Source of the DNA: the human T2T-CHM13v2.0 reference genome, Homo sapiens
Length of the DNA: 64,000 bases
Assembly (NCBI GenBank): GCA_009914755.4
Contig: CP086569.2
Coordinates: 27,776,001 to 27,840,000 of the forward strand
Direction: 5' to 3'
Shown: positions 12,301 through 46,450 of the stretch, one piece after another
Position numbering within the stretch: position 1 is the stretch's first letter
How the letters are laid out: each line of letters starts with the position of its first letter
The notes under the pieces: model-generated
The model's input: only the letters and a program-made list of their open reading frames with translations
What the model was told of the DNA's origin: nothing
The model's database searches: none
Translations under genes and position numbers: made by a program

Positions 12301-12690
12301 TGGAGTGGAATTGAGAGGAGTGGAATGGAGTAGGGTGGATTGTAGTGGAGAGTATTGGAAAAGAGTGGAGTGGAATGGAACGGAATGGAGTGGAGTGGAA
12401 TGGAATGGAATTGAGTAAAGAGGAGTGGAATGGAGAGTAATGGAGTGGAGTGGACTGGAGTGGAGTAGATTGCAGTGCATTTTACTGTAGGGGATAGAAG
12501 TGGTTTGGAGTGCAATGGAGTGGAGTGGAATGGAATGGAATGGAGTGGAATGGACTGGAACGGAATGGAATGGAATGGATTTAAAAGGCAGGGAATCAAA
12601 TCGAATTGAATCATATGGAATCAAGTCGAATCGACTGGAGGAAAGAAATCCAATGAAATCGAATGGAATGAATTGAATGGAGTCGAATGT
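6350..12690. repeat. Array-1 HOR copy (6,341 bp) with marker order A(6350)-P(7866)-B(9494)-Q(11051).
   Basis: Anchor-to-anchor spacing. Marker distances are A to P 1,516 bp, P to B 1,628 bp, B to Q 1,557 bp and Q to A 1,640 bp. Confidence 0.85.
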
Positions 12691-18600: not shown

Positions 18601-19043
18601 GAGTGAACTGGAGTGGAATGGAATGGAATGGGCAGGCATGGAATTGAAAGGCGTGGAGTGGAGTGGAATTGAGAGGAGTGGAATGGAGTAGGGTGGATTG
18701 TAGTGGAGAGTATCGGAAAAGAGTGGAGTGGAATGGAACGGAATGGAGTGGAGTGGAATGGAATGGAATTGAGTAAAGAGGAGTGGAATGGAGAGTAATG
18801 GAGTGGAGTGGACTGGAGTGGAGTAGATTGCAGTGCATTTTACTGTAGGGGATAGAAGTGGCTTGGAGAGCAATGGAGTGGAGTGGAATGGAATGGAGTG
18901 GAATGGACTGGAACGGAATGGAATGGAATGGATTAAAAAGGCAGAGAATCAAATCGAATTGAATCATATGGAATCAAGTCGAATCGACTGGAGGAAAGAA
19001 ATCCAATGAAATCGAATGGAATGAATTGAATGGAGTCGAATGT
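12691..19043. repeat. Array-1 HOR copy (6,353 bp).
   Basis: A anchor at 12691, P at 14232, B at 15855, Q at 17410, next A at 19044. Confidence 0.85.
12863..12905 (+). repeat. Pure (GGAAT)n tract of about 8 units inside the array-1 A head. Homologous tracts lie at 19221-19260 and 25581-25625. The equivalent site near 440-475 is shorter and interrupted.
   Basis: Direct reading. Confidence 0.8.
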
Positions 19044-25000: not shown

Positions 25001-25411
25001 ATGGAATTGAAAGGCGTGGAGTGGAGTGGAATTGAGAGGAGTGGAATGGAGTAGGGTGGATTGTAGTGGAGAGTATTGGAAAAGAGTGGAGTGGAATGGA
25101 ACGGAATGGAGTGGAGTGGAATGGAATGGAATTGAGTAAAGAGGAGTGGAATGGAGAGTAATGGAGTGGAGTGGACTGGAGTGGAGTAGATTGCAGTGCA
25201 TTTTACTGTAGGGGATAGAAGTGGCTTGGAGTGCAATGGAGTGGAGTGGAATGGAATGGAATGGAGTGGAATGGACTGGAACGGAATGGAATGGAATGGA
25301 TTTAAAAGGCAGGGAATCAAATCGAATTGAATCATATGGAATCAAGTCGAATCGACTGGAGGAAAGAAATCCAATGAAATCGAATGGAATGAATTGAATG
25401 GAGTCGAATGT
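19044..25411. repeat. Array-1 HOR copy (6,368 bp).
   Basis: A at 19044, P at 20586, B at 22218, Q at 23771, next A at 25412. Confidence 0.85.
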
Positions 25412-28400
25412 CAACCATGGAATCGAAAGGAATGTGGTAAAGTGGAGTGGAGTGGAGTGTTATGGAGTGGAATGGAATGGGGTGACATGGAATTGAATAC
25501 AGTGGAGAGGAGTGGAGTGGATTGGGTTAGAGTGGAATGGAAAGGGAAGGAATGGAACTGAATGGAGTGGAGTGGAATGGAGTGGAATGGAATGGAATGG
25601 AATGGAATGGAATGGAATGGAATGGAGTGGAATGGAATCGAATCACATGGAACTGAATCAAATCGAATTGAATGAAATTGAATGGAGAAAATGGAGTCAA
25701 ATGGAATCAAATCGAATGGATTCGAATGACATTGAATGGAATGGAAAGGAATGCAGTGAGGTGGAGTTGAGTGGAATGGAGTGGAATGGAATGGGATGAA
25801 TGGAATTGAATGGAGTGGAGTAGAATGGAATGGAAAGGAAACGAAAGGAATTGAATTGAACAAAATGGAGTGGAGTAGAATGGAGTGGATTGGTGTGGAG
25901 TGCAGGGGAGTGCAGTGGAATGAAGAGGAGTGTAGTTGAATGGAATGGAATGGTATGGAACGTACTGGAATGGAATGGATAAGAGTGGAATGGAATGGAA
26001 TCGCATGGAATTGAATAGAATCAAATCGAATTGAATAGAAACAAATGGAAAAAATGGAGTCAAATGGAATCGAATGGCATAGAATCGAACGATTTTGAAT
26101 GGCAGTGAATGCAAACGAATGGAATGCGATGAAGTGGAGCGGACTGGATTGGAAAGGAGTGCAATGGAATAGGGCGGAACTGAATTTAATGGAGCAGAGT
26201 GGATTGGAGTGGACTGGAGTGTAAAGGAATGGGAAGGAATGTGATTGAAAGGAGTGGCGTGCAGTGGATTGGAGTGGCATGGAGTGGAGTGGAGTGGAAT
26301 GGAGTGGAATGGAATGGAGTTGAATGGAGTGGATTAGAATGGAATGGAGTGCAGAGGAATGGAATGGAATGGTATAGAGTGGACAGGAAAGGAGTGGAGT
26401 GGATTGGAATGGAATGGAATGGAAAGGAATGGAACTGAATGGACTGGAATGGAATGGAATAGAATGGAATTGCAGGGAATCAAATTGGATTGAATCGAAT
26501 CGAATGGAAAAAGTGAAATCAAATGAAATTGAATGGAATCGTATTGAATGTAAAAAATGGAATCCAATGGAATCAAATGGAATTCAATCAAATGGTTAGG
26601 AATGGTGAAAAATGAAATCGCATGGAAGGCAGTGAATTGGAGTGGAGTGGAATAGAGAGGAATGAATTGGAATGGAGTGAAGTGGAATGGAGTGGATTCC
26701 AGTGGAGTGGAGTGGATTGGATTGGAATGGAATGGAATAGATTAGATTGGAGTGGTGCAGAGTGGACTGGACTGGAGTGGAGAGGAATGGAGTGGAGTGA
26801 AGTCGAGTTGAGTGGAATGGAATGGAGTGGAGCAGAGTGGAATGCAAAAGAATGAAGTGGATTGGTATGGGATGGAATGGCGTGGAATGGAGTGGAATAG
26901 AATGGAATGGAATCGCATGGAAGGATATCAAATCAAATGGAATCGAACGGAAAATTATGAATCCAATGGAATCGAAAGGATTCTAAAGGAATGGATTCGA
27001 AAGGCATTGAATGGAATGGAAAGGAATGCAGTGAAGTGGAGTGGAGTGGAGTGGATTGTTTTAGAGTGAAATGGGTTGGATTGGAACTCTATGGGGTGGA
27101 GTGGAGCGAAGTGGATTGGATTGGAATGGAGTACAATGGACTGGAGTGGAGTCGAATGGATTGGAGTGGAGTGTAGTGGATCGGAGTGGAGTGCTGTGGA
27201 GTGGACTAGAGTGGGGTAGAGTGGAGTGCATTGGAGTGGAATGGGGTGGAGTGGGGTGGAATGGAATGGAATGGCATCAAATCGCATGGTAATGAATCAA
27301 ATGGAATCAAATGGAACGGAAATAATGGAATCGAAGACAAACGAATGGAATCGAATTGCACTGATTCTACTGACTTGGAAGAAAATGAAATGAAATGCGG
27401 TGAAGTGGAGTGGAGTGGAATGTATTAGGGTGGAATGGAATTGAATGGTGTGGAGTGGGGTGGAGTGCCCAGGAGTGGAATGGGAAGAAATGGGATTGAA
27501 CGGAGTGGAGTGGAGTGGAATGGAGGGTAATGGAGTGGAATGGAGTGGAGTGGAGTAGAGTGGAATGGGTTGGAGTGGAATGCAGAGGACAGGAGTGGAG
27601 TGCGGTGGACTGGAGTGGAGTGGAGTTGAGTGGAGTGGATTGGATTGAAATAGAGTGGAGCAGAGTGGAATGGAATTGAATCACATGGTATTGAATCAAA
27701 TCGAATGGAATTAAATCGAATGAAAAAATGGAATCAAAAGCAAACGAATGGAGTCAAACCACATTGGTTAGACTGACATCGAATAATATCAAAAGCAATG
27801 TGGTGAAGTGGAGTGGAGTGTAATGAAATGGGGTGGAATGAAATTGAATGGAGTGGAGTGGAGTGGAGTCTACTGGAGTGGAATGGAATGGAAAGGAAAG
27901 GAATGGAATAGAATGGAGTGAAGTACAGTGCATTGAAATGGAGTGGAATGGAATGGAATGGAATGGAATCAAATGGAATCGAAGTGAATCGAATCTAATG
28001 AAATTGAACGGAAAAAATGGAATGAGTAGAATCGAAAAAGATAGATTCAAATGGCAACAAGTAGAATTGAATGGAATGCGGTGAGGTGGAGGGGATTGGA
28101 ATGGAGTTGAATGGAATGGGGTGTAATTGAATTGAATGGAGTGGATTGGATTGGAGTGGACTGGAGTGGAATGGAATGGCATGGGCAGGAATGGAATTGA
28201 AAGGGTTGAAGTGGAATTGAGTGGTGTGGATCGGAGTAGACTGCATTGTAGTGGATTGGAGTGGAAAGAAGTGGAGTGGAAGGGAATGGAATGCAATGGA
28301 GTGGAGTGGAATGGAGTGGAATGGAGAGTAATGGAGTGGAGTGGACTGGAGCGGAGTGGGGTGTAGTGCATTGGACTGTAGGGATTTGAAGTGGCTTGGA

Positions 28401-31400
28401 GTGCAATGGAGTGGAGTGGAATGGAATGGAATGGAGTGGAATGCACTGGGATGAATTGGAATGAAATGGATTGGAATCGCATGGAATCAAATAGAATAGA
28501 ATCATATAGAATTGAGTGAAATCGAATGGAAAAAAGAAATCGAAAGAAATTAAAAGGAATGAATCGAATGGAGTTGAATGTCATCCAGTGGAATTGAAAG
28601 GAATGCGGTAAAGTGGAGTGGAGTGGATTTAAATGGAGTGGAATCGAATGGGGAGACATGGAATTGAATAGAGTGGAGTGGAGTGGATTGGACTGGAGTG
28701 GAATGGAATGGAATGGGAAGGAATGGAACTGAACGGAGTGGAGTGGAGTGGAGTGGAATGGAGTAGAATGCAATTGAGTGGAATGGAATCGAATCCCTTG
28801 GAATTGAATCAAATCGAATCGAATGAAATCAGATGGAAAAAATGGAATCAAATCAAATGAATTCGAAAGGCATTGAAAGGAATCGAATTGAATGCGGTGA
28901 GGTGGAGTTGAGTTAAATGAAGTGGAATGGAATGATGTGTAATGGAATTGAATGGAGTGGAGAGGAGTGGAATAAAATGGAATGGAAAGAATGGAAATGA
29001 ACAAATTGGAGTGAAGTGGAATGGAGTGGATTGGAGTGCAGTGAAGCGGAGTGAAGTGCAATGAAGAGGAATGGCGTGGAGAGGAATGGAATGGAATGTT
29101 ATGGAATGTACTGGAATGGAATGGATAAGAATGGAATGGAATGGAATCACATGGAATACAATAGAATTGAATGGAATTCAATAGAATCAAATGGGAAAAA
29201 TGGAGTCGAATGGAATCGAATGGAATTGAATCGAATGGTTTTAAATTGTGGTGAATGGAAACACAAGGAAGGCGATGAAGTGGAGTGGAGTGGAATGGAA
29301 AGGAGTGCCATGGAATGGGGTAAAATTGAATTTAATGCAATGGAGTGGATTGGAGTGGACTGGAGTGGAATGGGAAGGAATGGGAAGGAATGGAATTGAA
29401 AGGAGTCGAGTAGAGTGGAATGGAGTGGAGTGCAGTGGAATGGAGTGGCAAGAAACGGAGTGGAATGGAGTGGATTGAAATGGAGTTGAATGCAGAGGAA
29501 TGGAATGGAATGGAATAGAGTGGACAGGAATGGAGTGGAGTGGGTTGGAATGGAATGGACTGGAGAGGAATGGAAGATAATGGACTGGACTGGACTGGAA
29601 TGTAATGGAATCGCAGGGAATGGAATCCAATCGAATTGAATAGAATCAAATGGAAAAATGGAATCAAATGGAATCGAATGGAATTGGATTGAATGTAAAA
29701 AATGGAATCAAATGTAATGGAATCAAATGGTTTTGAATGGCATCAAATGAAATCGAATGGAATGTAGTGAATTGGAGTGTAGTGGAATGGAGAGGAATGG
29801 ATTGGAATGGAGTTCAATGGAGTGGAGTGGAATGGAGTGGATTAGAGTGGAGTGGAGTGGATAGGATTGGAATGGAATGGAATGGATTGCAGTGGACTGG
29901 TGCAGAGTGGAGTGGACTGGAGTGGAGAGGAATGGAGTGGAGTGGTCGAGTTGAGTGGAATGGAATGATGTGGAGTGGAGTGGAATGCAGTGGAATGCAG
30001 TAGAATGAAGTGGATTGGAATGGAAAGGAATGGCGTGGAATGGAGGGGAAACGAATGGAATGGCGTGGAATGGAGTGGAATGGAATGGAATGGAGTGGAA
30101 TGGAATGGAGTGGAATAGCATGGAATGAAATCAAATCAAATCGAATGCAATGGAAAATTATGAATCAAATGTAATCGAATGGATCCCAAATGAGTGGATT
30201 CGAATGGCATTGCATGGAGTGGAAAGGAATGCGGTGAAGTGGAGTGGAGTGGAATGTATTGGATTGGAATGGGGTGGATTGGAATTCTATGGAGTGGAGT
30301 GGAGTGAAGTGGATTGGAGTGGAATGGAGTGGAATGAACTGGAGTAGAGTGGAATGGATTGGAGTGGAGTGTAGTGGAATGGAGTGGAGTGCTGTGGAGT
30401 GGAGTAGAGTGTGGTGGGGTGGAGTGGATTGGAGTAGAATAGAGTGGAGTGGAGTGTAATGGAATGGAATGGAATCAAATCACATGGTAACGAATCTAAT
30501 CGAATGGAAAAAATGGAATTGAATGCAAACGAATGGAATGGAATTGCACTGATTCTACTGAGTTCGAATAAAATCAAATGAAATGCGGTGAAGTGGAATG
30601 GAGTGGAATGAAATGGGTTGGAAACTAATTCAATGGTGTGGAGAGGAGTGGAGTGTCCTGGAGTGGAATGGAATGGAATGGAATGGGAAGGAGAGGAATT
30701 TTACGGAGTGCAGTGGAATGGAGCAGAATAGAGTGTAATGGAGTGGAGTGGAGTGGAATGTGTTGGAGTGGAGTGCAGTGGACAGGAGTGGAGTGCCGTG
30801 GACTGGAATGGAGTGGAGTGGATTGCAGTGGAAAAGAGTGGAGCGGAGTGGAATGAAATGGAATGTAATGGAATCGCATGGTATTGAATCAAATCCAACT
30901 GAATTAAATCGAATGGAAAAAATGGAATCGAATGCCAACAAATGGAATCGAATCGCGTCGTTTCGACTGACATTGAATAAAATCAAAAGAAATGCGTTGA
31001 AGTGGAGTGGAGTGGAATGAAAGGGGGTGGAATGGAAATGAATGGAGTTGATTGGAGTGGAGTCGACTGAAGTGGAACGGAATGGAATAGGAAGGAATGG
31101 AATTAAATGGAGTGGAGTGCAGTACAGTGAAATGAGGTGGAATCGTATGGAATGGAGTGGAATGGAATTGCATGGAATTGAATCGAATCGAATCTAATGT
31201 ATTTGAAAGGAAAAAAATGGAACTGAATAGAATCGAAAACAATGGATTCGACTGGCATCTAATAGAATGAAATGGAATGCGGTGAGGTGGAGTGGATTTT
31301 AATGGAGTTGAATGGAATGGGGCGTAATTGAATTGAGTGGAGTGGAGTGGAGTGAACTGGAGTGGAATGGAATGGAATGGGCAGGCATGGAATTGAAAGG

Positions 31401-31792
31401 CGTGGAGTGGAGTGGAATTGAGAGGAGTGGAATGGAGTAGGGTGGATTGTAGTGGAGAGTATTGGAAAAGAGTGGAGTGGAATGGAACGGATTGGAGTGG
31501 AGTGGAATTGAATGGAATTGAGTAAACAGGAATGGAATGGAGAGTAATGGAGTGGAGTGGACTGGAGTGGAGTAGATTGCAGTGCATTTTACTGTAGGGG
31601 ATAGAAGTGGCTTGGAGTGCAATGGAGTGGATTGGAATGGAATGGAATGGAGTGGAATGGACTGGAACGGAATGGAATGGATTTAAAAGGCAGGGAATCA
31701 AATCGAATTGAATCATATGGAATCAAGTAGAATCGACTGGAGGAAAGAAATCCAATGAAATCGAATGGAATGAATGGAATGGAGTCGAATGT
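25412..31792. repeat. Array-1 HOR copy (6,381 bp).
   Basis: A at 25412, P at 26953, B at 28582, Q at 30148, next A at 31793. Confidence 0.85.
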
Positions 31793-34665
31793 CAACCATG
31801 GAATCGAAAAGAATGTGGTAAAGTGGAGTGGAGTGGAGTGTTATGGAGTGGAATGGAATGGGGTGACAGGGAATTGAATACAGTGGACAGGAGTGGAGTG
31901 GATTGGGTTAGAGTGGAATGGAATGGAATGGAATGGAATGGAATGGAACGGAATAGAGTGGAATGGAATCGAATCACATGGAACTGAATCAAATCGAATT
32001 GAATGAAATTGAATGGAGAAAATGGAGTCAAATGGAATCAAATCGAATGGATTCGAATGACATTGAATGGAATCGAAAGGAATGCAGTGACGTGGAGTTG
32101 AGTGGAATGGATTGGAATGGGATGAATGGAATTGAAAGGAGTGGAGTGGAATAGAATGGAATGGAAAGGAATTGAATTGAAGAAAATGGAGTGGAGTAGA
32201 ATGGAGTGGATTTGAGTGGAGTGCAGGGGAGTGCAGTGGAATGAAGAGGAGTGTAGTTGAATGGAATGGAATATTATGGAACGTACTGGAATGGAATGGA
32301 TAAGAATGGAATGGAATGGAATCGCATGGAACTGAATAGAATCAAATCGAATTGAATAGAATCAAATGGAAAAAATGGAGTCAAATGGAATCGAATGGCA
32401 TAGAATTGAACGGTTTTGAATGGCAGTGAAAGGAAACGAATGGAATGCGATGAGGTGGAGCGGACTGGATTGGAAAGGAGTGCAATGGAATAGGGCGGAA
32501 CTGAATTTAATGGAGCAGAGTGGATTGGAGTGGACTGGAGTGTAATGGAATGGGAAGGAATGGGATTGAAAGGAGTGGCGTGCAGTGGAGTGGAGTGGCA
32601 TGGAGTGGAGTGGAGTGGAATGGATTGGAATGGAATGGAGTTGAATGGAGTGGATTAGAATGGAATGGAGTGCAGAGGAATGGAATGGAATGGTATAGAG
32701 TGGACAGGAAAGGAGTGCAGTGGATTGGAATGGAATGGAATGGAAAGGAATGGAACTGAATGGACTGGAATGGAATGGAATAGAATGGAATCGCAGGGAA
32801 ACAAATTGGATTGAATCGAATAGAATGGAAAAAATGAAATCAAATGAATTTGAATGGAATCGAATTGAATGTAAAAAATGGAATCCAATGGAATCAAATG
32901 GAATTCAATCAAATGATTTGGAATGGTGTAAAATGAAATCGCATGGAAGGCAGTGAATTGGAGTGGAGTGGAATAGAGAGGAATGAATTGGAATGGAGTG
33001 GAGTGGAATGGAGTGGATTCCAGTGGAGTGGAGTGGATTGGATTGGAATGGAATGGAATAGATTAGATTGGAGTGGTGCAGAGTGGACTGGACTGGAGTG
33101 GAGAGGAATGGAGTGGAGTGAAGTCGAGTTGAGTGGAATGGAATGGAGTGGAGCAGAGTGGAATGCAAAAGAATGAAGTGGATTGGTATGGAATGGAATG
33201 GCGTGGAATGGAGTGGAATAGAATGGAATGGAATCGCATGGAAGGATATCAAATGAAATGGAATCGAACGGAAAATTATGAATCCAATGGAATCGAAAGG
33301 ATTCTAAAGGAATGGATTCGAAAGGCATTGAATGGAATGGAAAGGAATGCAGTGAAGTGGAGTGGAGTGGAGTGGATTGTTTTAGAGTGAAATGGGTTGG
33401 ATTGGAACTCTATGGGGTGGAGTGGAGCGAAGTGGATTGGATTGGAATGGAGTACAATGGACTGGAGTGGAGTCGAATGGATTGGAGTGGAGTGTAGTGG
33501 ATCGGAGTGGAGAGCCGTGGAGTGGACTAGAGTGGGGTAGAGTGGAGTGCATTGGAGTGGAATGGGGTGGAGTGGGGTGGAATGGAATGGAATGACATCA
33601 AATCGCATGGTAATGAATCAAATGGAATCAAATGGAACGGAAATAATGGAATCGAAGACAAACGAATGGAATCGAATTGCACTGATTCTACTGACTTGGA
33701 AGAAAATGAAATGAAATGCGGTGAAGTGGAGTGGAGTGGAATGTATTAGGGTGGAATGGAATTGAATGGTGTGGAGTGGGGTGGAGTGCCCAGGAGTGGA
33801 ATGGGAAGAAATGGGATTGAACGGAGTGGCGTGGAGTGGAATGGAGGGTAATGGAGTGGAATGGAGTGGAGTGGAGTAGAGTGGAATGGGTTGGAGTGGA
33901 ATGCAGAGGACAGGAGTGGAGTGCGGTGGACTGGAGTGGAGTGGAGTTGAGTGGATTGGATTGGATTGAAATAGAACGGAGCAGAGTGGAATGGAATTGA
34001 ATCACATGGTATTGAATCAAATCGAATGGAATTAAATCGAATGAAAAAATGGAATCAAAAGCAAACGAATGGAGTCAAACCACATTGGTTAGACTGACAT
34101 CGAATAATATCAAAAGAAATGTGGTGAAGTGGAGTGGAGTGTAATGAAATGGGGTTGAATGAAATTGAATGTAGTGGAGTGGAGTGGAGTCTACTGGAGT
34201 GGAATGGAATGGAAAGGAAAGGAATGGAATAGAATGGAGTGAAGTGCAGTGCAGTGAAATGGAGTGGAAAGGAATGGAATCGAATGGAATGGAATAGAAT
34301 GGAATGGAATGGAATGGAATGGAATCAAATGGAATCGAAGTGAATTGAATCTAATGAAATTGAACGGAAAAAATGGAATGAGTAGAATCGAAAAAGATGG
34401 ATTCAAATGGCAACAAATAGAATTGAATGGAATGCGGTGAGGTGGAGGGGATTGGAATGGAGTTGAATGGAATGGGGTGTAATTGAATTGAATGGAGTGG
34501 ATTGGATTGCAGTGGACGGGAGTGGAATGGAATGGCATGGGCAGGAATTGAATTGAAATGGTTGAAGTGGAATTGAGTGGTGTGGATCGGAGTAGACTGC
34601 ATTGTAGTGGATTGGAGTGGAAAGAAGTGGAGTGGAATGGAATGGAATGCAATGGAGTGGAGTGG
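31793..34665. repeat. Array-1 terminal partial copy (A head, P marker, then the start of a B head). The A head is diverged and carries a deletion of about 45 bp near 31,905-31,925.
   Basis: A anchor at 31793. The segment 'ggaaagggaaggaatggaactgaatggagtggagtggaatggagtgg', present in other A heads, is missing here. P is at 33284. B-type diagnostic 'gggcaggaat...aaagggttgaagtggaattgagtggtgtggatcggagtagactgcattgtagtgg' lies at about 34,530-34,610. Confidence 0.75.
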
Positions 34666-34720
34666 AAAGGAATGGAATTGAGTGAAGTGGAGTGGAGTGG
34701 AATGGAGAGTAATGGTGTGG
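34640..34720. other. Junction between the two satellite HOR arrays (array-1 B type switching to array-2 type) within a homologous segment.
   Basis: Up to about 34,660 the sequence follows the array-1 B head ('gcaatggagtggagtgg'). From about 34,665 it follows array-2 diagnostics: 'aaggaatggaattgagtgaagtggagtggagtggaatggagagtaatgg', 'gtacgggatagaagtgccttggagtgccatgg', 'ggactggaaaggaatgg' and 'catattgaaacaagttgaatcgtctggagg'. Confidence 0.7.
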
Positions 34721-35090
34721 AGTGGACTTTATTGGAGTAGATAGTAGTGCATTGGACTGTACGGGATAGAAGTGCCTTGGAGTGCCATGGAGTGGAGTGG
34801 AATGGAATGGAATGTAGTGGAATGGACTGGAAAGGAATGGAATGGAATGGATTTAAATGGCAGGGAATCAAATCGGATTGAATCATATTGAAACAAGTTG
34901 AATCGTCTGGAGGAAAGAAATCGAATGAAATCGAATGGAATGAATGGAAGAGAGTGCAACGTTATAGAATGGAATGGAGACAGATGGAATGGAATGCAAC
35001 AGAGAGCAATGGTATAGAATGCAATGGAATCATATGGTAAGGAGTTGAATGGAATGGAATAATATGAAATGGAATGGAATGAAATGGAAT

Positions 35091-37879
35091 GCCCTTGCAT
35101 TAAATGGACTGGAATGGAATGGACTCGAACAGAGTGGAATGGAAAGGATTGAAATAGAATGGAATGTACTCCTTTGGAATGGTCTAATATGGATGCCATC
35201 GACTGGTAGGGAATCAAAAGGAATGTAATCGAATGGATTGGACTGGAATGCAATGGACTCGAAAAGATTGGAAACGGAGTGCAATGGAATGGAATGGAAT
35301 AGTATGGAATGGAAAGGAAAGGAATGGAGTGGAATAGACTAGAGTGGAATGGAATGGACTCAAAAGCAATGGGCTGGAATGGAACGGTCTTGAATGGACT
35401 GAAATCAAAAGGAATGGAATGGAATGCAATGCAATCAAATGGAATGGAATAAAATAGAATGAAAGAGAATCAAACGGAATTGAATCGAACGGAATCGAAT
35501 GGATTGGAAAGGAATAGAATGGAATGGAATGGAATTGACTCAAATGGAATGGAGTAGAATGGAATGGAGTCGAATGGAAGGCAAAGGAATGGAATCTATT
35601 GGAATGGAGTGTAATGGAATGGAATGGAAGGTATTGGAACGGACTCGCATGGAATGGACTGCAATAGAAAGTATTCGAATGGCATGAAAAAGAATTGAAT
35701 GGAATAGAAGAAAATGGAATCAAATCGAATGAAATGGAATGGAATAGAAAGGAATGGAATGAAATGGAATGGAAAGGATTCGAATGGAATGCAATCGAAT
35801 GGAATGCAATCGAATGGAATGCAATCGAATGGAATGGAATCGAACGGAATGGAATAAAATGGAAGCAAACTGGCAAGAAATGGAATCGAAATGAATGGAG
35901 TGTTATGGAACGGACTCAAAAGGAATTGAATGTAATAGAATGGAGTGGAGTGGACTCGAATATAATGGACTGGAATGGAATGGAATCACATGGAATGGGA
36001 ACGAATGGAATGGAATGGAAAGGAATGGAATCGAATGGAAGGGAATGAAATTGAATCAACAGGAATGGAAGGGAATAGAATAGACTTTAATGGAATGGAC
36101 TCTAATAGAAAGGAGACGAATGCTCAAATTGAATGGACTCGAATGGAATGGAAACGAAAGGAATGTCATCGAATGGAATTGAATCGATTGGAATGGAATC
36201 GCATAGAATGGAGAGGAATCAAATGGAATTGAATCGAATGGAAAGGAAGCGAATGGACTGAAATGAAATGGAATGGAATGGAATGGAAAGTAATGCAATG
36301 CAATAGAATGGAACGAAATTTCACGGAATGGAATCAAACAGAATGGAATCAAATCAATGGAATATAATCACATGGAATGGAATGTAATGGAAAGGAATTG
36401 AATGCAATAGATTGGATTGGAAGGGATTGGAATGCAATGGAATGGAAAGGACTCGAATTTCATGAAACGGAATGGAATGAATTGGAATGGAATGGACTCG
36501 AATGGAATGGGATGTCAAGGAATGACATCAAATGGAATGGCATCAAATGGAATGGAATCGAATGCAATGGAATGTTATGGAATGGAATGGAATGTATTGG
36601 AATGGAATGTCCTCTAATGGAATGGATTCGAGTGGAATGGAATCGAATATAATGGATACGAATGAAATGGAATTGAAATGAATGGGATCGAATAGAATGG
36701 AATATAATGGAATGTAAGGTAATGAAGTCGAATGAAATTGACTGGAATGGAATGTACATGAATGGAATGCAATCGAATGGAATAGAATCTAATGCAATAA
36801 AACCGACTCAAATGGAATAGAATGTAATGGAATGGAGTGCAGTGCAATGGAATGGAATGGAATGGAATGGAATGGAATGGAATGGAATGGGATGGGATGG
36901 AATGGGATGGAATGGTATGGAACGGATAATAATGGTCTGGAGTGAAATGGACTGGAAAGGAATGGACTCAAATTGAAAGGGCTCGAAAGGAATGGGGTCA
37001 AATGTAATGGTCTGGAATGGAATGAACTCGAATGTAATGCAATCCAATAGAATGGAATTGAATGGAATGGAATATAAAGAAATGGAATCGAAGAGAATGG
37101 AAACAAATGGAATGGAATTGTATGGAATTGAATCGAATCGAATCGAATGTAATTGAACGGAAAAAATGCAACTGAATAGAATCGAAAACAGTGGATTCGA
37201 CTGGCATCTAATAGAATGAAATGGAATGCGTTGAGGTGGAGTGGATTGTAATGGAGTTGAATGGAATGGGGTGTAATTGAATTGAATGGGGTGGAGTGGA
37301 GTGAACTGGAGTGGAATGGAATGGAATGGGCAGGCATGGAATTGAAAGGCGTGGAGTGGAGTGCAATTGAGAGGAGTGGAATGGAGTAGGGTGGATTGTA
37401 GTGGAGAGTACTGGAAAAGAGTGGAGTGGAACGGAATGGAATGGAGTGGAGTGGAATGGAATGGAATTGAGTGAAGTGGAGTGGAGTGGAATGGAGAGTA
37501 ATGGAGTGGAGTGGACTTGATTGGAGTAGATAGCAGTGCATTGGACTCTACGGGATAGAAGTGGCTTGGAGTGCCATGGAGTGGAGTGGAATGGAATGGA
37601 ATGGAGTGGAATGGACTGGAAAGGAATGGAATGGAATGGATTTAAATGGCAGGGAATCAAATCGAATTGAATCATATTGGAACAAGTTGAATCGACTGGA
37701 GGAAAGAAATCGAATGAAATCGAATGGAATGAATGGAAGAGAGTGCAATGTTATAGAATGGAATGGAGACAGATGGAATGGAATGGAACAGAGAGCAATG
37801 GTATAGAATGCAATGGAATCCTATGGAATGGAATTGAATGGAATGTAATAATATGAAATGGAATGGAATAGAATGAAAC
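35091..37879. repeat. Array-2 HOR copy 1 (2,789 bp). This is the most diverged copy and lies at the array edge.
   Basis: Anchor spacing. It has unique variants such as a triplicated 15-mer at 35785-35829 and a divergent 36,600-36,800 segment. Confidence 0.8.
35785..35829. repeat. Three tandem copies of the 15-mer 'ggaatgcaatcgaat', private to the edge HOR copy.
   Basis: Direct reading. ORF 35695..36048 reads 'EWNAIEWNAIEWNAIEWNG'. Other HOR copies have the 15-mer only once, for example 'EWNAIEWNGIERNG' in ORF 38484..38807. Confidence 0.8.
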
Positions 37880-40800
37880 GCCCTTGCATTAAATGGACTG
37901 GAATGGAATGGACTCGAACAGAGTGGAATGGAAAGCATTGAAATAGAATGGAATGGACTCCTTTGGAATGGTCTAGTATGGATGCAATCAACAGGCAGGG
38001 AATCAAAAGGAATATAATCGAATGGATTGGACTGGAATACAATGGACTCGAATAGATTGGAAACGGAATGCAATGGAATGGAATGGAATAGTATGGAATG
38101 GAATGGAATGGAATGGAGTGGAATAGACTAGAGTGGAATGGAATGGACTCGAAAGTAATGGACTGGAATGGAACGGTCTTGAATGGACTGGAATCAAACG
38201 GAATGGAATGGAATGCAATGCAATCAAATGGAATGGAATAAAATAGAATGAAAGAGAATCAAATGGAATTGAATGGAATGGAATCGAATGGATTGGAAAG
38301 GAATAGAATGGAATGGAATGGAATTGACTCAAATGGAATGGACTAGAATGGAATGGAGTCGAATGGAAGGCAAAGGAATGGAATCTATTGGAATGGACTG
38401 TAATGGAATGGAATGGAAGGGATTGGAATGGACTCGAATGGAATGGACTGCAATAGAAAGGATTCGAATGGAATGAAAAAGAATTGAATGGAATAGAACA
38501 GAATGGAATCAAATCGAATGAAATGGAATGGAATAGAAAGGAATGGAATGAAATGGAATGGAAAGGATTCGAATGGAATGCAATCGAATGGAATGGAATC
38601 GAACGGAATGGAATAAAATGGAGGCAAACTGGCAAGAAATGGAATCGAAATGAATGGAGTGTTATGGAACGGACTCCAAAGGAATTGAATGTAATAGAAT
38701 GGAGTGGAGTGGACTCGAATATAATGGACTGGAATGGAATGGAATCACATGGAATGGGAACGAATGGAATGGAATGGAAAGGAATGGAATCGAATGGAAG
38801 GGAATGAAATTGAATCAACAGGAATGGAAGGGAATAGAATAGACTGTAATGGAATGGACTCGAATAGAAAGGACACGAATGCTCAAATTGAATGGACTCG
38901 AATGGAATAGAAACGAAAGGAATGTCATCGTATGGAAATGAATCGATTGGAATGGAATCGCATAGAATGGAGAGGAATGAAATGGAATTGAATCGAATGG
39001 AAAGGAACCGAATGGACTGAAATGAAATGGAATGGAATTGAATGGAAAGTAATGCAATGCAATAGAATGGAACGAAATTTCACCGAATGGAATGAAACAG
39101 AATGCAATCAAATCAATGGAATATAATGAAATGGAATGGAATGGAATGGAAAGGAATTGAATGGAATAGATTGGATTGGAAGGGATTGGAATGCAATGGA
39201 ATGGAAAGGACTCGAATTTCATGAAACGGAATGGAATGAATTGGAATGGAATGGACTCGAATGGAATGGAATGTCATGGAATGGCATCAAATGCAATGGC
39301 ATCAAATGGAATGGAATCGAATGCAATGTAATGTTATGGAATGGAATGGAATGTATTGGAATGGAATGTCCTCTAATGGAATGGATTCGAGTGGAATGGA
39401 ATCGAATATAATGGAGTCGAATGAAATGGAATTGAAATGAATGGGATCGAATAGAATGGAATATACTGGAATGTAATGTAATGAAGTCGAATGTAATTGA
39501 CTGGAATGGAATGTACATGAATGGAATGCCATCGAATGGAACAGAATCTAATGTAATAAAACCGACTCAAATGGAATAGAATGTAATGGAATGGAGTGCA
39601 GTGCAATGCAATGGAATGTTATGGAATGGAATGGAATGTATTGGAATGGAATGTCCTCTAATGGAATGGATTCGAGTGGAATGGAATTGAATACAATGGA
39701 GTCGAATGAAATGGAATTGAAAGGAATGGGATCGAATAGAATGGAATATACTGGAATGTAATGTAATGAAGTCGAATGTAATTGACTGGAATGGAATGTA
39801 CATGAATGGAATGCAATCGAATGGAATAGAATCTAATGCAATAAAACCGACTCAAATGGAATAGAATGTAATGGAATGGAGTGCAGTGCAATGGAATGGA
39901 ATGGAATGGAATGGAATGGAGTGGAATGGAATGGGATGGAATGGGATGGAATGGTATGGAACGGATAATAATGGTCTGGAGTGAAATGGACTGGAAAGGA
40001 ATGGACTCAAATTGAAAGGGCTCGAAAGGAATGGGGTCAAATGTAATGGTCTGCAATGGAATGAACTCGAATGTAATGCAATCCAATAGAATGGAATCGA
40101 ATGGAATGGAATATAAAGAAATGGAATCGAAGAGAATGGAAACAAATGGAATGGAATTGTATGGAATTGAATCGAATCGAATCGAATGTAATTGAACGGA
40201 AAAAATGCAACTGAATAGAATCGAAAACAATGGATTCGACTGGCATCTAATAGAATGAAATGGAATGCGTTGAGGTGGAGTGGATTGTAATGGAGTTGAA
40301 TGGAATGGGGTGTAATTGAATTGAATGGGGTGGAGTGGAGTGAACTGGAGTGGAATGGAATGGAATGGGCAGGCATGGAATTGAAAGGCGTGGAGTGGAG
40401 TGGAATTGAGAGGAGTGGAATGGAGTAGGGTGGATTGTAGTGGAGAGTATTGGAAAAGAGTGGAGTGGAACGGAATGGAATGGAGTGGAGTGGAATGGAA
40501 TGGAATTGAGTGAAGTGGAGTGGAGTGGAATGGAGAGTAATAGAGTGGAGTGGACTTGATTGGAGTAGATAGCAGTGCATTGGACTGTACGGGATAGAAG
40601 TGGCTTGGAGTGCCATGGAGTGGAGTGGAATGGAATGGAATGGAGTGGAATGGACTGGAAAGGAATGGAATGGAATGGATTTAAATGGCAGGGAATCAAA
40701 TCGAATTGAATCATATTGGAACAAGTTGAATCGACTGGAGGAAAGAAATCGAATGAAATCGAATGGAATGAATGGAAGAGAGTGCAATGTTGTAGAATGG

Positions 40801-40918
40801 AATGGAGACAGATGGAATGGAATGGAACAGAGAGCAATGGTATAGAATGCAATGGAATCATATGGAATGGAATTGAATGGAATGGAATAATATGAAATGG
40901 AATGGAATGGAATGGAAT
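37880..40918. repeat. Array-2 HOR copy 2 (3,039 bp), which contains a 283-bp internal tandem duplication.
   Basis: Anchor spacing. The duplication is at 39325-39890. Confidence 0.85.
39325..39890. repeat. 283-bp tandem duplication inside an array-2 HOR copy (copy 1 about 39325-39607, copy 2 about 39608-39890). The two copies are different HOR-variant types.
   Basis: The string 'aataaaaccgactcaaatggaatagaatgtaatggaatggagtgcagtgcaatg' occurs at about 39555 and again at about 39835. Duplicate ORFs 39219..39518 and 39567..39803 both start 'MYIPFQSITFDF'. Copy 1 has 'gaatcgaatataatggagtcg...ttgaaatgaatggg', as at the homologous site in HOR copy 4. Copy 2 has 'gaattgaatacaatggagtcg...ttgaaaggaatggg', as in HOR copy 3. 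Confidence 0.8.
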
Positions 40919-43697
40919 GCCCTTGCATTAAATGGACTGGAATGGAATGGACTCGAACAGAGTGGAATGGAAAGCATTGAAATAGAATGGAATGGACTCC
41001 TTTGGAATGGTCTAGTATGGATGCAATCGACTGGCAGGGAATCAAAAGGAATGTAATCGAATGGATTGGACTGGAATACAATGGACTCGAATAGATTGGA
41101 AACGGAATGCAATGGAATGGAATGGAATAGTATGGAATGGAATGGAATGGAATGGAGTGGAATAGACTAGAGTGGAATGGAATGGACTCGAAAGCAATGG
41201 ACTGGAATGGAACGGTCTTGAATGGACTGGAATCAAACGGAATGGAATGGAATGCAATGCAATCAAATGGAATGGAATAAAATAGAATGAAAGAGAATCA
41301 AATGGAATTGAATGGAATGGAATCGAATGGATTGGAAAGGAATAGAATGGAATGGAATGGAATTGACTCAAATGGAATGGACTAGAATGGAATGGAGTCG
41401 AATGGAAGGCAAAGGAATGGAATCTATTGGAATGGACTGTAATGGAATGGAATGGAAGGGATTGGAATGGACTCGAATGGAATGGACTGCAATAGAAAGG
41501 ATTCGAATGGAATGAAAAAGAATTTAATGGAATAGAACAGAATGGAATCAAATCGAATGAAATGGAATGGAATAGAAAGGAATGGAATGAAATGGAATGG
41601 AAAGGATTCGAATGGAATGCAATCGAATGGAATGGAATCGAAAGGAATGGAATAAAATGGAAGCAAACTGGCAAGAAATGGAATCGAAATGAATGGAGTG
41701 TCATGGAACGGACTCAAAAGGAATTGAATGTGATAGAATGGAGTGGAGTGGACTCGAATATAATGGACTGGAATGGAATGGAATCACATGGAATGGGAAC
41801 GAATGGAATGGAATGGAAAGGAATGGAATCGAATGGAAGGGAATGAAATTGAATCAACAGGAATGGAAGGGAATAGAATAGACTGTAATGGAATGGACTC
41901 GAATAGAAAGGACACGAATGCTCAAATTGAATGGACTCGAATGGAATGGAAACGAAAGGAATGTCATCGAATGGAATTGAATCGATTGGAATGGAATCGC
42001 ATAGAATGGAGAGGAATCAAATGGAATTGAATCGAATGGAAAGGAACCGAATGGACTGAAATGAAATGGAATGGAATTGAATGCAAAGTAATGCAATGCA
42101 ATAGAATGGAACGAAATTTCACGGAATGGAATGAAACAGAATGGAATCAAATCAAAGGAATATAATGAAATGGAATGGAATGGAATGGAAAGGAATTGAA
42201 TGGAATAGTTTCGATTAGAAGGGATTGGAATGCAATGGAATGGAAAGGACTCGAATTTCATGAAACGGAATGGAATGAATTGGAATGGAATGGACTCGAA
42301 TGGAATGGAATGTCATGGAATGGCATCAAATGGAATGGCATCAAATGGAATGGAATCGAATGCAATGGAATGTTATGGAATGGAATGGAATGTATTGGAA
42401 TGGAATGTCCTCTAATGGAATGGATTCGAGTGGAATGGAATTGAATACAATGGAGTCGAATGAAATGGAATTGAAAGGAATGGGATCGAATAGAATGGAA
42501 TATACTGGAATGTAATGTAATGAAGTCGAATGTAATTGACTGGAATGGAATGTACATGAATGGAATGCAATCGAATGAAATAGAATCTAATGCAATAAAA
42601 CCAACTCAAATGGAATAGAATGTAATGGAATGGAGTGCAGTGCAATGGAATGGAATGGAATGTAATGCAATGGAGTGCAGTGCAATGGAATGGAATGGAA
42701 TGGGATGGAATGGGATGGAATGGTATGGAACGGATAATAATGGTCTGGAGTGAAATGGACTGGAAAGGAATGGACTCAAATTGAAAGGGCTCGAAAGGAA
42801 TGGGGTCAAATGTAATGGTCTGGAATGGAATGAACTCGAATGTAATGCAATCCAATAGAATGGAATCGAATGGAATGGAATATAAAGAAATGGAATCGAA
42901 GAGAATGGAAACAAATGGAATGGAATTGCATGGAATTGAATCGAATCGAATCGAATGTAATTGAACGGAAAAAATGCAACTGAATAGAATCGAAAACAAT
43001 GGATTCGACTGGCATCTAATAGAATGAAATGGAATGCGTTGAGGTGGAGTGGATTGTAATGGAGTTGAATGGAATGGGGTGTAATTGAATTGAATGGGGT
43101 GGAGTGGAGTGAACTGGAGTGGAATGGAATGGAATGGGCAGGCATGGAATTGAAAGGCGTGGAGTGGAGTGGAATTGAGAGGAGTGGAATGGAGTAGGGT
43201 GGATTGTAGTGGAGAGTATTGGAAAAGAGTGGAGTGGAACGGAATGGAATGGAGTGGAGTGGAATGGAATGGAATTGAGTGAAGTGGAGTGGAGTGGAAT
43301 GGAGAGTAATGGAGTGGAGTGGACTTGATTGGAGTAGATAGCAGTGCATTGGACTGTACGGGATAGAAGTGGCTTGGAGTGCCATGGAGTGGAGTGGAAT
43401 GGAATGGAATGGAGTGGAATGGATTGGAATGGACTGGAAAGGAATGGAATGGAATGGATTTAAATGGCAGGGAATCAAATCGAATTGAATCATATTGGAA
43501 CAAGTTGAATCGACTGGAGGAAAGAAATCGAATGAAATCGAATGGAATGAATGGAAGAGAGTGCAATGTTATAGAATGGAATGGAGACAGATGGAATGGA
43601 ATGGAACAGAGAGCAATGGTATAGAATGTAATGGAATCATATGAAATGGAATTGAATGGAATGGAATAATATGAAATGGAATGGAATGGAATGGAAT
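40919..43697. repeat. Array-2 HOR copy 3 (2,779 bp).
   Basis: Anchor spacing. It contains a 40-bp tandem duplication at 42621-42700. Confidence 0.85.
42621..42700. repeat. 40-bp tandem duplication ('tgtaatg[g/c]aatggagtgcagtgcaatggaatggaatggaa' twice), private to HOR copy 3.
   Basis: Direct reading. Other copies carry a single instance followed by a pure (GGAAT)n tract. Confidence 0.75.
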
Positions 43698-46450
43698 GCC
43701 CTTGCATTAAATGGACTGGAATGGAATGGACTCGAACAGAGTGGAATGGAAAGCATTGAAATAGAATGGAATGGACTCCTTTGGAATGGTCTAGTATGGA
43801 TGCAATCGACTGGCAGGGAATCAAAAGGAATGTAATCGAATAGATTGGACTGGAATACAATGGACTCGAATAGATTGGAAACGGAATGCAATGGAATGGA
43901 ATGGAATAGTATGGAATGGAATGGAATGGAATGGAGTGGAATAGAATAGAGGGGAATGGAATGGACTCGAAAGCAATGGACTGGAATGGAACGGTCTTGA
44001 ATGGACTGGAATCAAACGGAATGGAATGGAATGCAATGCAATCAAATGGAATGGAATAAAATAGAATGAAAGAGAATCAAATGGAATTGAATGGAATGGA
44101 ATCGAATGGATTGGAAAGGAATAGAATGGAATGGAATGGAATTGACTCAAATGGAATGGACTAGAATGGAATGGAGTCGAATGGAAGGCAAAGGAATGGA
44201 ATCTATTGGAATGGACTGTAATGGAATGGAATGGAAGGGATTGGAATGGACTCGAATGGAATGGACTGCAATAGAAAGGATTCGAATGGAATGAAAAAGA
44301 ATTGAATGGAATAGAACAGAATGGAATCAAATCGAATGAAATGGAATGGAATAGAAAGGAATGGAATGAAATGGAATGGAAAGGATTCGAATGGAATGCA
44401 ATCGAATGGAATGGAATCGAACGGAATGGAATAAAATGGAGGCAAACTGGCAAGAAATGGAATCGAAATGAATGGAGTGTTATGGAACGGACTCCAAAGG
44501 AATTGAATGTAATAGAATGGAGTGGAGTGGACTCGAATATAATGGACTGGAATGGAATGGAATCACATGGAATGGGAACGAATGGAATGGAATGGAAAGG
44601 AATGGAATCGAATGGAAGGGAATGAAATTGAATCAACAGGAATGGAAGGGAATAGAATAGACTGTAATGGAATGGACTCGAATAGAAAGGACACGAATGC
44701 TCAAATTGAATGGACTCGAATGGAATGGAAACGAAAGGAATATCATCGAATGGAATTGAATCGATTGGAATGGAATCGCATAGAATGGAGAGGAATGAAA
44801 CGGAATTGAATCGAATGGAAAGGAACCGAATGGACTGAAATGAAATGGAATGGAATTGAATGGAAAGTAATGCAATGCAATAGAATGGAACGAAATTTCA
44901 CGGAATGGAATGAAACAGAATGGAATCAAATCAATGGAATATAATGAAATGGAATGGAATGGAATGGAAAGGAATTGAATGGAATAGATTGGATTGGAAG
45001 GGATTGGAATGCAATGGAATGGAAAGGACTCGAATTTCATGAAACGGAATGGAATGAATTGGAATGGAATGGACTCGAATGGAATGGAATGTCATGGAAT
45101 GGCATCAAATGGAATGGCATCAAATAGAATGGAATCGAATGCAATGGAATGTTATGGAATGGAATGGAATGTATTGGAATGGAATGTCCTCTAATGGAAT
45201 GGATTCGAGTGGAATGGAATCGAATATAATGGAGTCGAATGAAATGGAATTGAAATGAATGGGATCGAATAGAATGGAATATACTGGAATGTAATGTAAT
45301 GAAGTCGAATGTAATTGACTGGAATGGAATGTACATGAATGGAATGCAATCGAATGGAATAGAATCTAATGCAATAAAACCGACTCAAATGGAATAGAAT
45401 GTAATGGCATGGAGTGCAGTGCAATGGCATGGAATGGAATGGAATGGAATGGAATGGAATGGAATGGGATGGAATGGGATGGAATGGTATGGAACGGATA
45501 ATACTGGTCTGGAGTGAAATGGACTGGAAAGGAATGGACTCAAATTGAAAGGGCTCGAAAGGAATGGGGTCAAATGTAATGGTCTGGAATGGAATGAACT
45601 CGAATGTAATGCAATCCAATAGAATGGAATCGAATGGAATGGAATATAAAGAAATGGAATCGAAGAGAATGGAAACAAATGGAATGGAATTGCATGGAAT
45701 TGAATCGAATCGAATCGAATGTAATTGAACGGAAAAAATGCAACTGAATAGAATCGAAAACAATGGATTCGACTGGCATCTAATAGAATGAAATGGAATG
45801 CGTTGAGGTGGAGTGGATTGTAATGGAGTTGAATGGAATGGTGTGTAATTGAATTGAATGGGGTGGAGTGGAGTGAACTGGAGTGGAATGGAATGGAATG
45901 GGCAGGCATGGAATTGAAAGGCGTGGAGTGGAGTGGAATTGAGAGGAGTGGAATGGAGTAGGGTGGATTGTAGTGGAGAGTATTGGAAAAGAGTGTAGTG
46001 GAACGGAATGGAATAGAGTGGAGTGGAATGGAATGGAATTGAGTGAAGTGGAGTGGAGTGGAAAGAAGAGTAATGGAGTGGAGTGGACTTGATTGGAGTA
46101 GATAGCAGTGCATTGGACTGTACGGGATAGAAGTGGCTTGGAGTGCCATGGAGTGGAGTGGAATGGAATGGAATGGAGTGGAATGGACTGGAAAGGAATG
46201 GAATGGAATGGATTTAAATGCAGGGAATCAAATCGAATTGAATCATATTGGAACAATTTGAATCAACTGGAGGAAAGAAATCGAATGAAATCGAATAGAA
46301 TGAATGGAAGAGAGTGCAATGTTATAGAATGGAATGGAGACAAATGGAATGGAATGGAACAGAGAGCAATGGTATAGAATGCAATGGAATCATATGGAAT
46401 GGAATTGAATGGAATGGAATAATATGAAATGGAATGGAATGGAATGGAAT
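43698..46450. repeat. Array-2 HOR copy 4 (2,753 bp).
   Basis: Anchor spacing. Confidence 0.85.

What the first reader, a model, noticed from the sequence alone, without database searches (positions are those of the whole stretch)
34400..35300. Two different HOR arrays abut here: a 6.35-kb-HOR array and a 2.75-kb-HOR array.
Left of about 34.66 kb the periodicity is about 6.35 kb (anchors 6350, 12691, 19044, 25412 and 31793). Right of it the periodicity is 2.73-2.79 kb (anchors 35091 through 62958). The array-2 unit contains a roughly 0.65-kb block (for example 37,100-37,740) that is collinear with the B-tail/A-head region of array 1 (for example 5,700-6,330). The minus-strand ORFs 5806..6273 and 37208..37675 are homologous, both starting 'MIQFDLIP.HLNPFHSIPFQSIPLHSIPFHSTP'. 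The switch from array-1 B-type diagnostics to array-2 diagnostics happens within this shared block at about 34,660-34,720, in register. This is the signature of unequal homologous recombination between related satellite families. It is not an insertion of foreign DNA, because there are no flanking non-satellite bases and no target-site duplication.
Basis: seen in the sequence. Interest (0 to 1): 0.6.

Follow-up and report, generated by a model that had tools for sequence, protein, structure and literature searches.

The report
Hybrid repeat joining two satellite arrays
Two different kilobase-scale tandem arrays of a (GGAAT)n satellite of the human satellite 2/3 type meet inside a 0.63-kb block that both share, and the copy at the join switches from one array's version to the other's within about 14-21 bases; this looks like an unequal homology-guided exchange, which is a tidy example of something already known.

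Summary
Left of about 34.65 kb the window is a 6.36-kb tandem repeat, and right of it a 2.73-2.79-kb repeat with one 3.04-kb unit. Everything is (GGAAT)n-derived on one strand, with no foreign DNA.

Only about 0.63 kb of the array-2 unit is homologous to array 1. Array 1 carries two paralogous copies of that block per unit. I call them P and Q, and the array-2 copy R. R is 92-98% identical to Q but only about 80% identical to P.

The junction copy (34,313-34,949) is P-type at 49 of 49 diagnostic sites up to 34,652. It is R-type at 34 of 36 sites from 34,667 on (0 of 2000 permutations reach this). The units on either side of the junction are the most diverged of their arrays, which argues against a misjoin.

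- These are nested tandem repeats, not monomer-based HORs.
- The partners were only about 80% alike, so the exchange was homeologous, at a 21-nt identical patch and one pentamer out of strict register.
- The junction copy is the mid-unit paralogue, not the 5,700-6,330 one.
- The ORFs are by-products of the repeat.

A second hybrid block (P/Q, about 2,950) lies in the same window. The junction could not be found in independent data. This is ordinary satellite evolution and of low-to-moderate interest.

The parts
1..34652 (+). Array 1: a 6.36-kb nested tandem repeat of (GGAAT)n-derived satellite. Each unit is a dimer of two halves of about 3.18 kb that are about 85% alike. It is rich in both GGAAT (22%) and GGAGT (18%) pentamers, and GC is about 0.435.
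   Evidence: 20-mer spacings and unit lengths. Interior units are 98.5-98.9% alike pairwise and 99.0-99.5% identical to the consensus. A parallel second diagonal at an offset of about 3.17-3.2 kb shows 0.80-0.92 identity. Pentamer spectrum. GC.
34667..64000 (+). Array 2: a 2.73-2.79-kb nested tandem repeat (one unit is 3,039 bp). Each unit is about 2.05 kb of array-specific sequence (Y) followed by the shared block (R). There are ten full units plus a partial one. GGAAT is 35% of pentamers and GC is about 0.39.
   Evidence: (units 98.0-99.7% alike).
34313..34949 (+). Junction copy (J) of the shared block, a P-left/R-right hybrid.
   Evidence: 34,326-34,652 is 98.5% identical to the P consensus and 80.8% to R. 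34,667-34,949 is 96.8% identical to R and 77.7% to P. A sliding profile shows 100% P up to about 34,630 and 95-98% R from about 34,660.
34653..34666 (+). Breakpoint interval between the last P-specific site (34,652) and the first R-specific site (34,667). In an ungapped reading it is a 21-nt patch, AATGGAGTGGAGTGGAATGGA (34,651-34,671), shared by both parents. That patch carries one private T>A change at 34,668 and one extra pentamer relative to strict register.
27934..28568 (+). Representative P-series block of array 1, at the end of the half-unit and in register with J. The others are 8,842-9,480, 15,207-15,841 and 21,563-22,204.
12021..12677 (+). Representative Q-series block of array 1, the paralogue that array 2's block resembles. 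The others are 5,676-6,336, 18,379-19,030, 24,742-25,398 and 31,140-31,779.
   Evidence: Q-R identity is 97.9% in the left part of the block and 92.2% in the right part, and falls to 59-65% outside the block on both sides.
37105..37738 (+). Representative R-series block of array 2. The others end at 40777, 43556, 46309, 49083, 51842, 54581, 57313, 60047 and 62816.
   Evidence: All R copies are uniform at the diagnostic sites.
2775..3448 (+). A second hybrid block inside array 1. It is P-type on the left and Q-type from about 2,950-3,010. A Q/'A-head'-type tract follows to about 4,350, ending at a deletion of about 330 bp.
34191..34886 (-). A 231-codon open frame spanning the junction. Together with 5806..6273(-) and 37208..37675(-), it is a by-product of (ATTCC)n, which reads IPFHS without stop codons.
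   Evidence: There is no exact copy and no meaningful homologue in the protein collections.

Best explanation
The window is pericentromeric-type classical satellite of the human satellite 2/3 kind: a (CATTC/GGAAT)n simple repeat that has evolved kilobase-scale nested tandem repeats.

Two such arrays lie head to tail on the same strand. Their units are unrelated beyond the pentamer, except for one discrete 0.63-kb block. Array 1 carries that block twice per 6.36-kb unit (P and Q, about 82% alike). Array 2 carries it once per 2.76-kb unit (R). R is a close relative of Q, so at some earlier time one array acquired the block from the other or from a common source.

The present junction was made by a single homology-guided unequal exchange. 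The exchange could have been a crossover between misaligned chromatids or homologues, or a local deletion between direct repeats. It paired a P block of array 1 with an R block of array 2 and resolved in a 21-nt identical patch. Everything to the left stayed array 1 and everything to the right stayed array 2.

Shown: the two arrays, the block, the single sharp switch, and the continuity of both flanks. Inferred: that the event was recombinational, that it is not recent (the edge units have since diverged), and the order of events.
For: Period-5 satellite runs throughout on one strand. Two periodicities and their unit tables are established.

Homology between the two units is confined to about 0.63 kb, with sharp ends on both sides. 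Q-R identity is 59% before the block, 97.9% and 92.2% inside it, and 64.5% after it.

The junction copy is 49/49 P-type and then 34/36 R-type, switching between 34,652 and 34,667. 0 of 2000 permutations reach this, and pairwise profiles agree. The flanks are 95-98.6% identical to array 1 on the left and 95-96% identical to array 2 on the right.

The units adjoining the junction are the most diverged from their array consensus. They score 97.0% and 96.8%, against at least 98.7% for the interior units without the insertion. Divergence in array 2 falls with distance from the join. This is as expected for real array edges.

A second paralogue exchange (P/Q hybrid at about 2,950, block 2,775-3,448) in the same window shows that such exchanges recur here.

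The literature holds that HSat2,3 form kb-scale nested tandem repeats whose periodicity varies along arrays (bioRxiv 10.1101/2021.07.12.452052). It also holds that they evolve by unequal exchange and conversion (PMC4022460; bioRxiv 10.1101/2022.12.01.518724).
Against: P and R are only about 80% identical, which is poor substrate for classical homologous recombination. The identical patch at the breakpoint is 21 nt, and a longer identical stretch about 200 nt upstream was not used. The hybrid is 5 nt longer than a strictly in-register product.

No independent copy of the junction was found. The 37-mer is absent from metagenome and genome contigs. The spanning ORF is absent from the protein and contig collections. 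No reads were available, and no reciprocal product was seen. The species and chromosome were not established.
Confidence: 0.7

Rival explanations
1. Replication-based template switching or microhomology-mediated end joining (MMBIR or MMEJ type) made the join, rather than crossover-type recombination. A broken or stalled end in a P block re-primed on the 21-nt identical patch of an R block.
For: The partners are only about 80% alike. The breakpoint sits in a short (21-nt) identical patch and not in the longest one. The product is one pentamer out of register, and there is a private substitution in the patch.
Against: The join falls at the homologous position of the only block the two units share, to within 5 nt. 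There are roughly 6.4 kb x 2.8 kb possible pairings, so this points to alignment over more than a microhomology. Identical short patches of GGAAT/GGAGT runs are common throughout both arrays (26 near-matches to the 37-mer). A microhomology-only mechanism would therefore rarely land in register.
Confidence: 0.12
2. There was no inter-array event. Array 2 grew out of the edge of array 1 by amplifying [block + adjacent sequence Y], and J is the founder block. Its two halves were later homogenised separately with their neighbours by conversion.
For: R is derived from, or shares a source with, an array-1 block (Q-R 92-98%). Both arrays are adjacent and co-oriented. One metagenome contig (L002) has B-body + Q-like block + Y-start, the arrangement such a founder would have.
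Against: The array-1 side of J is the P paralogue in its proper P context, whereas R is Q-like over its whole length. A founder in this position should therefore be Q-type, and an extra P x R step is needed anyway. L002 carries only about 50-75 nt of Y. It comes from a short-read assembly that could be chimeric across the shared block.
Confidence: 0.12
3. The junction is an assembly artefact: a false join or collapse through the shared block.
For: The join lies exactly in the one sequence both arrays share, which is where assemblers fail. No independent copy of the junction was found.
Against: The parents are about 80% alike across the block and identical for only 21 nt at the switch, which is far too little for an overlap-based join. 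J has private changes on both sides, being 98.5% and 96.8% identical to the parental consensus. The adjoining units on both sides are distinct edge-type variants with a divergence gradient, not copies of interior units.
Confidence: 0.05

Closest known systems
Human satellite 3 / satellite 2 (HSat2,3) nested tandem repeat arrays, for example the 3.6-kb DYZ1 unit on Yq12 and the 1.77-kb chr1 HSat2 unit
   Same: The base repeat is (CATTC/GGAAT)n on one strand. Kilobase repeat units lack any discrete monomer level. Units are 98-99% alike within an array. Neighbouring arrays have different periodicity. Near-identical pieces turn up as stray contigs in metagenome assemblies (PMC4022460; bioRxiv 10.1101/2021.07.12.452052; 10.1101/2022.12.01.518724).
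   Different: I could not tie the unit lengths of 6.36 kb (a dimer of 3.18 kb) and 2.76 kb to any named subfamily. Species, chromosome and subfamily are not established.
Hybrid repeat units produced by unequal crossing-over in tandem arrays (the Smith 1976 model; alpha-satellite HOR structural variants and hybrid HORs)
   Same: A chimeric unit shows a single switch of diagnostic sites inside a homologous segment. The flanks continue each parent, and there is no filler DNA or target-site duplication.
   Different: Here the parents are two different repeat families that share only a 0.63-kb module about 80% alike. They are not two registers of one homogeneous array. The exchange is one pentamer off register.
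Layered or locally expanded satellite arrays with diverged edges (T2T centromere maps)
   Same: The units next to the boundary are the most diverged, and the interior is more homogeneous.
   Different: The window shows only one boundary. Whether array 2 is a younger expansion inside array 1 cannot be seen.

Membership tests
HSat2,3-type (CATTC)n classical satellite | The sequence derives from a tandem CATTC/GGAAT pentamer. | tested here: met
   TRF calls one array over 68..63,990 with period 5, consensus ATGGA and 65% matches. GGAAT rotations make up 22% (array 1) and 35% (array 2) of pentamers.
HSat2,3-type (CATTC)n classical satellite | Kilobase-scale nested tandem repeat without a discrete monomer level. 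| tested here: met
   Units are 6.36 kb and 2.76 kb, at 98-99.7% identity. TRF reports no period other than 5, up to 500 bp.
HSat2,3-type (CATTC)n classical satellite | Carries the subfamily-specific 24-mers of Altemose et al. 2014 (assignment to 2A1...3B5). | tested here: inconclusive
   The held copy of Dataset S2 is truncated. The one part I read (1 of 10) lists only subfamily 2A1, and the file appears to be ordered by subfamily. No HSat3 markers could be compared.
HSat2,3-type (CATTC)n classical satellite | Human or hominoid pericentromeric or acrocentric location. | not testable with these tools
   No eukaryotic genome collection is available. The only indirect hint is that seven metagenome contigs carry the block, one of them 98.6% identical to array 2. 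This is compatible with host-DNA carry-over.
Monomer-based higher-order repeat (alpha-satellite-type HOR) | The unit is an integer number of similar-length monomers (for example 171 bp) that are 60-80% alike. | tested here: not met
   There is no intermediate period. Array 1 is a dimer of 3.18-kb halves, which is the only HOR-like trait.
Hybrid unit from unequal homologous exchange | The parents share a homologous segment, and diagnostic sites switch once inside it. | tested here: met
   49 P / 0 R, then 2 P / 34 R, with 0 of 2000 permutations reaching this.
Hybrid unit from unequal homologous exchange | The exchange is in register, and the flanks are collinear with each parent. | tested here: met
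   The flanks are collinear. Register is kept to within one 5-nt pentamer.
Hybrid unit from unequal homologous exchange | A reciprocal product, or presence/absence polymorphism of the event. | not testable with these tools
   This needs other haplotypes. The junction 37-mer is absent from the two collections scanned.

The most novel reading that the evidence does not exclude
The 0.63-kb block is a portable module shared by several HSat3-type nested repeats, and it acts as their preferred switch point. Four combinations would then point to module shuffling through one recombination-prone block, rather than a single accident:
- the P/R hybrid at 34.65 kb;
- the P/Q hybrid at about 2.95 kb;
- metagenome contigs with [array-2 Y][block][array-1 A-head] (L001, L006);
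- a metagenome contig with [array-1 B-body][block][array-2 Y-start] (L002).
Probability: 0.2. Interest if true: 0.5.

Novelty: new member of a known kind. Interest (0 to 1): 0.28.

Why it matters
Base-pair-resolved junctions between different satellite arrays show how such arrays are born, joined and trimmed. This one shows that exchange can occur between repeat families sharing only a short module about 80% alike. It also gives a unique 37-nt marker (34,648-34,684) for following this boundary across haplotypes. It does not change the accepted picture of satellite evolution by unequal exchange.

Tried and rejected
1. Whole-unit homology between the arrays. I tested whether array 2 is a diverged third version of the 3.18-kb half-unit of array 1. 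It is not: outside the block, best hits are 73-78% with no consistent diagonal.

2. Coding potential. The ORFs exist, but the minus strand is open almost everywhere (238 stretches of at least 100 codons). The junction ORF has no real homologues and no exact copy on record.

3. Independent confirmation of the junction. An exact 37-mer scan of metagenome contigs and genome contigs found nothing.

4. Subfamily assignment through the 24-mer list of PMC4022460. The held file is truncated, and the part I read lists only HSat2A1. Searches for published periodicities of 6.3 or 2.7 kb found none.

5. First blastn run with word size 11. It timed out on this repetitive sequence, so I re-ran it with longer words.

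6. A 26-sequence MAFFT alignment. It misaligned J locally in pentamer runs, giving spurious 'b' and '.' states. The claims about J therefore rest on the smaller alignment and on pairwise profiles.

7. Foreign insertion or transposable element at the join. Rejected, because the pentamer satellite and the strand skew are uninterrupted.
Full report
WHAT THE WINDOW IS

The whole 64 kb is one uninterrupted pentameric satellite on one strand. Tandem Repeats Finder reports a single period-5 array (consensus ATGGA, 68..63,990, 65% matches). GC skew is +0.59 to +0.76 in every 2-kb bin. GC falls from about 0.435 to about 0.39 at 34-36 kb.

[quoted passage not shown] It also notes that periodicity can change along an array (bioRxiv 10.1101/2021.07.12.452052). 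I could not establish species, chromosome or subfamily with the tools at hand.

CHECKING THE OBSERVATION

- Periodicity. Spacings of identical 20-mers cluster at 6,321-6,386 bp left of 34.6 kb. Right of 34.8 kb they cluster at 2,732-2,789 bp, plus a 3,039 class. A 1-kb k-mer heat map shows two separate repeat blocks meeting at bins 34-35. It also shows a faint periodic cross-signal between the two arrays.
- Unit lengths. Using the shared block as anchor, array-1 units are 6032, 6361, 6363, 6364 and 6381 bp. Interior units are 98.5-98.9% alike. Array-2 units are 2789, 3039, 2779, 2753, 2774, 2759, 2739, 2732, 2734 and 2769 bp, and are 98.0-99.7% alike.
- Verdict on the periodicity claim. It is right, except that one array-2 unit is 3.04 kb. 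That unit carries an extra 275 bp at 39,615-39,889, a near-duplicate of the sequence 285 bp upstream.

ANATOMY OF ARRAY 1

The 6.36-kb unit is a dimer. Every 150-nt window has a second-best hit on a parallel diagonal about 3.17-3.2 kb away, at 0.80-0.92 identity. Each half ends in a copy of a block of about 0.65 kb.
- Series P ends at 3448, 9480, 15841, 22204 and 28568.
- Series Q ends at about 6336, 12677, 19030, 25398 and 31779.

THE SHARED BLOCK

I slid 200-nt windows of the array-2 consensus over the array-1 consensus. Only array-2 positions of about 2,050-2,759 give a consistent diagonal. They match the Q block at 93-99% identity, with the P block a weaker second. The other 2 kb of the array-2 unit (Y) gives 73-78% best hits at scattered places, which is pentamer background.

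Identities between consensus sequences:

| Pair | Upstream of block | Left part of block | Right part of block | Downstream of block |
|---|---|---|---|---|
| Q-R | 58.9% | 97.9% | 92.2% | 64.5% |
| P-R | not quoted | 82.3% | 79.5% | not quoted |

So the block is a discrete module with sharp ends, at about 34,313 and 34,949 in junction coordinates.

THE JUNCTION

- Flanks. 33,500-34,220 is 95-98.6% identical to the in-register array-1 copies. 34,950-35,700 is 94.5-96.0% identical to all array-2 copies. The stretch between them is only 84-88% identical to either.
- Diagnostic sites. I aligned 5 P, 5 Q and 10 R copies with the junction copy J. At every column where the P and R consensus differ, J is P-type up to 34,652 and R-type from 34,667.
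- Counts. With each indel counted once, and within the block only, there are 49 P and 0 R sites on the left and 2 P and 34 R sites on the right. The maximum chi-square breakpoint lies between 34,652 and 34,667, and 0 of 2000 permutations reach it.
- Pairwise profiles agree. J is 100% P up to about 34,630 and 95-98% R from about 34,660. J's right part is R-type and not Q-type, at 96.8% versus 89.8%.
- Register. Read without gaps, both parents share the 21-mer AATGGAGTGGAGTGGAATGGA here. J carries a private T>A change at 34,668 inside it. J is also one pentamer longer than a strictly in-register product.
- Marker. The 37-mer 34,648-34,684 is unique in the window. Its nearest relatives differ at 2 or more positions.

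IS THE JUNCTION REAL?

Without reads this cannot be proved, but three points argue against a misjoin.
1. The parents are about 80% alike over the block and identical for only 21 nt at the switch.
2. J has private changes on both sides.
3. The units adjoining the join are the most diverged of their arrays, at 97.0% and 96.8% to consensus against at least 98.7% for the interior units without the insertion. In array 2 divergence declines with distance from the join: 96, 91, 98, 98, 99 and 100% in successive 500-bp bins.

That is the pattern of true array edges. It also means the event is not very recent.

Attempts to find the junction elsewhere failed. The 37-mer is in neither metagenome contigs nor genome contigs. 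The 231-aa minus-strand frame that spans the junction is not on record and has no real homologues.

MECHANISM

The most economical reading is one homology-guided unequal exchange between a P block and an R block. Because R is Q-like along its full length, array 2's unit existed before this event. The event then joined the P context of array 1 to the Y context of array 2.

If the arrays were already neighbours through a Q-type block, the present join is simply a deletion of 3.2 kb or more between direct repeats. If they were not neighbours, it is an inter-array crossover. I cannot tell which.

The low identity of the partners, the short identical patch and the 5-nt offset leave room for a replicative template switch instead of a crossover. 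Against pure microhomology joining, similar short patches occur all over both arrays (26 near-matches to the 37-mer). Yet the join sits at the homologous position of the only shared module.

THE ORFs

Both cited ORFs exist at the stated coordinates and are 139/155 identical. But (ATTCC)n reads IPFHS without stop codons. The minus strand has 238 open stretches of at least 100 codons, covering 129 kb summed over three frames. The ORFs only restate the DNA homology.

OTHER FINDINGS IN THE WINDOW

- A second hybrid. The block at 2,775-3,448 is P-type on the left and Q-type from about 2,950-3,010. A Q/'A-head'-type tract follows to about 4,350. There the path jumps back to the other half-unit, with a loss of about 330 bp. 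This explains the short, 94%-identical first unit.
- Related contigs from outside. A degenerate probe for the block found seven short metagenome contigs.
  - L007 is 98.6% identical to array 2.
  - L001 and L006, which are 96.8% alike to each other, combine array-2 Y-end + block + the array-1 sequence that normally follows Q.
  - L002 combines array-1 B-body + block + about 50-75 nt of array-2 Y-start.
  - These may be further real module combinations. They may also be short-read assembly chimeras through the shared block, and I give them little weight.

COMPARISON WITH WHAT IS KNOWN, AND VERDICT

Satellite arrays are known to evolve by unequal exchange and conversion (PMC4022460). [quoted passage not shown]

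This junction is a clean, base-resolved instance of that process between two different NTR families sharing a short module. It is a new member of a known kind.

Interest is low to moderate.

Noticed in passing
window 2,775-4,350: A second hybrid block. The copy ending at 3,448 is P-type on the left and Q-type from about 2,950-3,010. It is followed by about 1.3 kb of the sequence that normally follows Q. There is then a jump back to the other half-unit with a loss of about 330 bp, which makes the 6,032-bp, 94%-identical unit. This could be a conversion tract or a double exchange between the two halves of the array-1 unit.
   Followed up: yes
L001:1-2395, L006:1-1782, L002:1-1099 (metagenome contigs): These contigs combine modules in ways not seen in the window. 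L001 and L006 (96.8% alike to each other) have array-2 Y-end + block + array-1 'A-head'. L002 has array-1 B-body + block + about 50-75 nt of array-2 Y-start. Their blocks carry the same variant as the window's two leftmost blocks (ends 3448 and 6336). They may be real further junctions or mixed units, or they may be short-read assembly chimeras.
   Followed up: partly
window 39,615-39,889: The one 3,039-bp array-2 unit carries 275 extra bases. The sequence 285 bp upstream is 83% identical, against a 64-72% background, so this is a local tandem duplication inside one unit.
   Followed up: partly
window 28,569-37,738: The last array-1 unit and the first array-2 unit are each about 3% from their array consensus, while interior units are 0.5-1.3% away. 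In array 2 the divergence is highest in the first 1 kb after the join. This is an edge effect of homogenisation.
   Followed up: yes
window 51,843-62,816: The four rightmost complete array-2 units are more alike (99.0-99.7%) than the units nearer the junction (98.0-98.9%). This suggests a more recently homogenised or expanded core towards the right.
   Followed up: no
window 34,240-34,312: The pure (GGAAT)n tract just upstream of the block differs in length between P copies, Q copies, R copies and J. J has about 25 extra bases relative to the P consensus. This is pentamer slippage at the block's left boundary.
   Followed up: no
L003, L004, L005 (metagenome contigs): These are relatives of the array-2 unit at only 84-91% identity. 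Other, more diverged versions of this repeat therefore exist elsewhere in the source genome(s).
   Followed up: no
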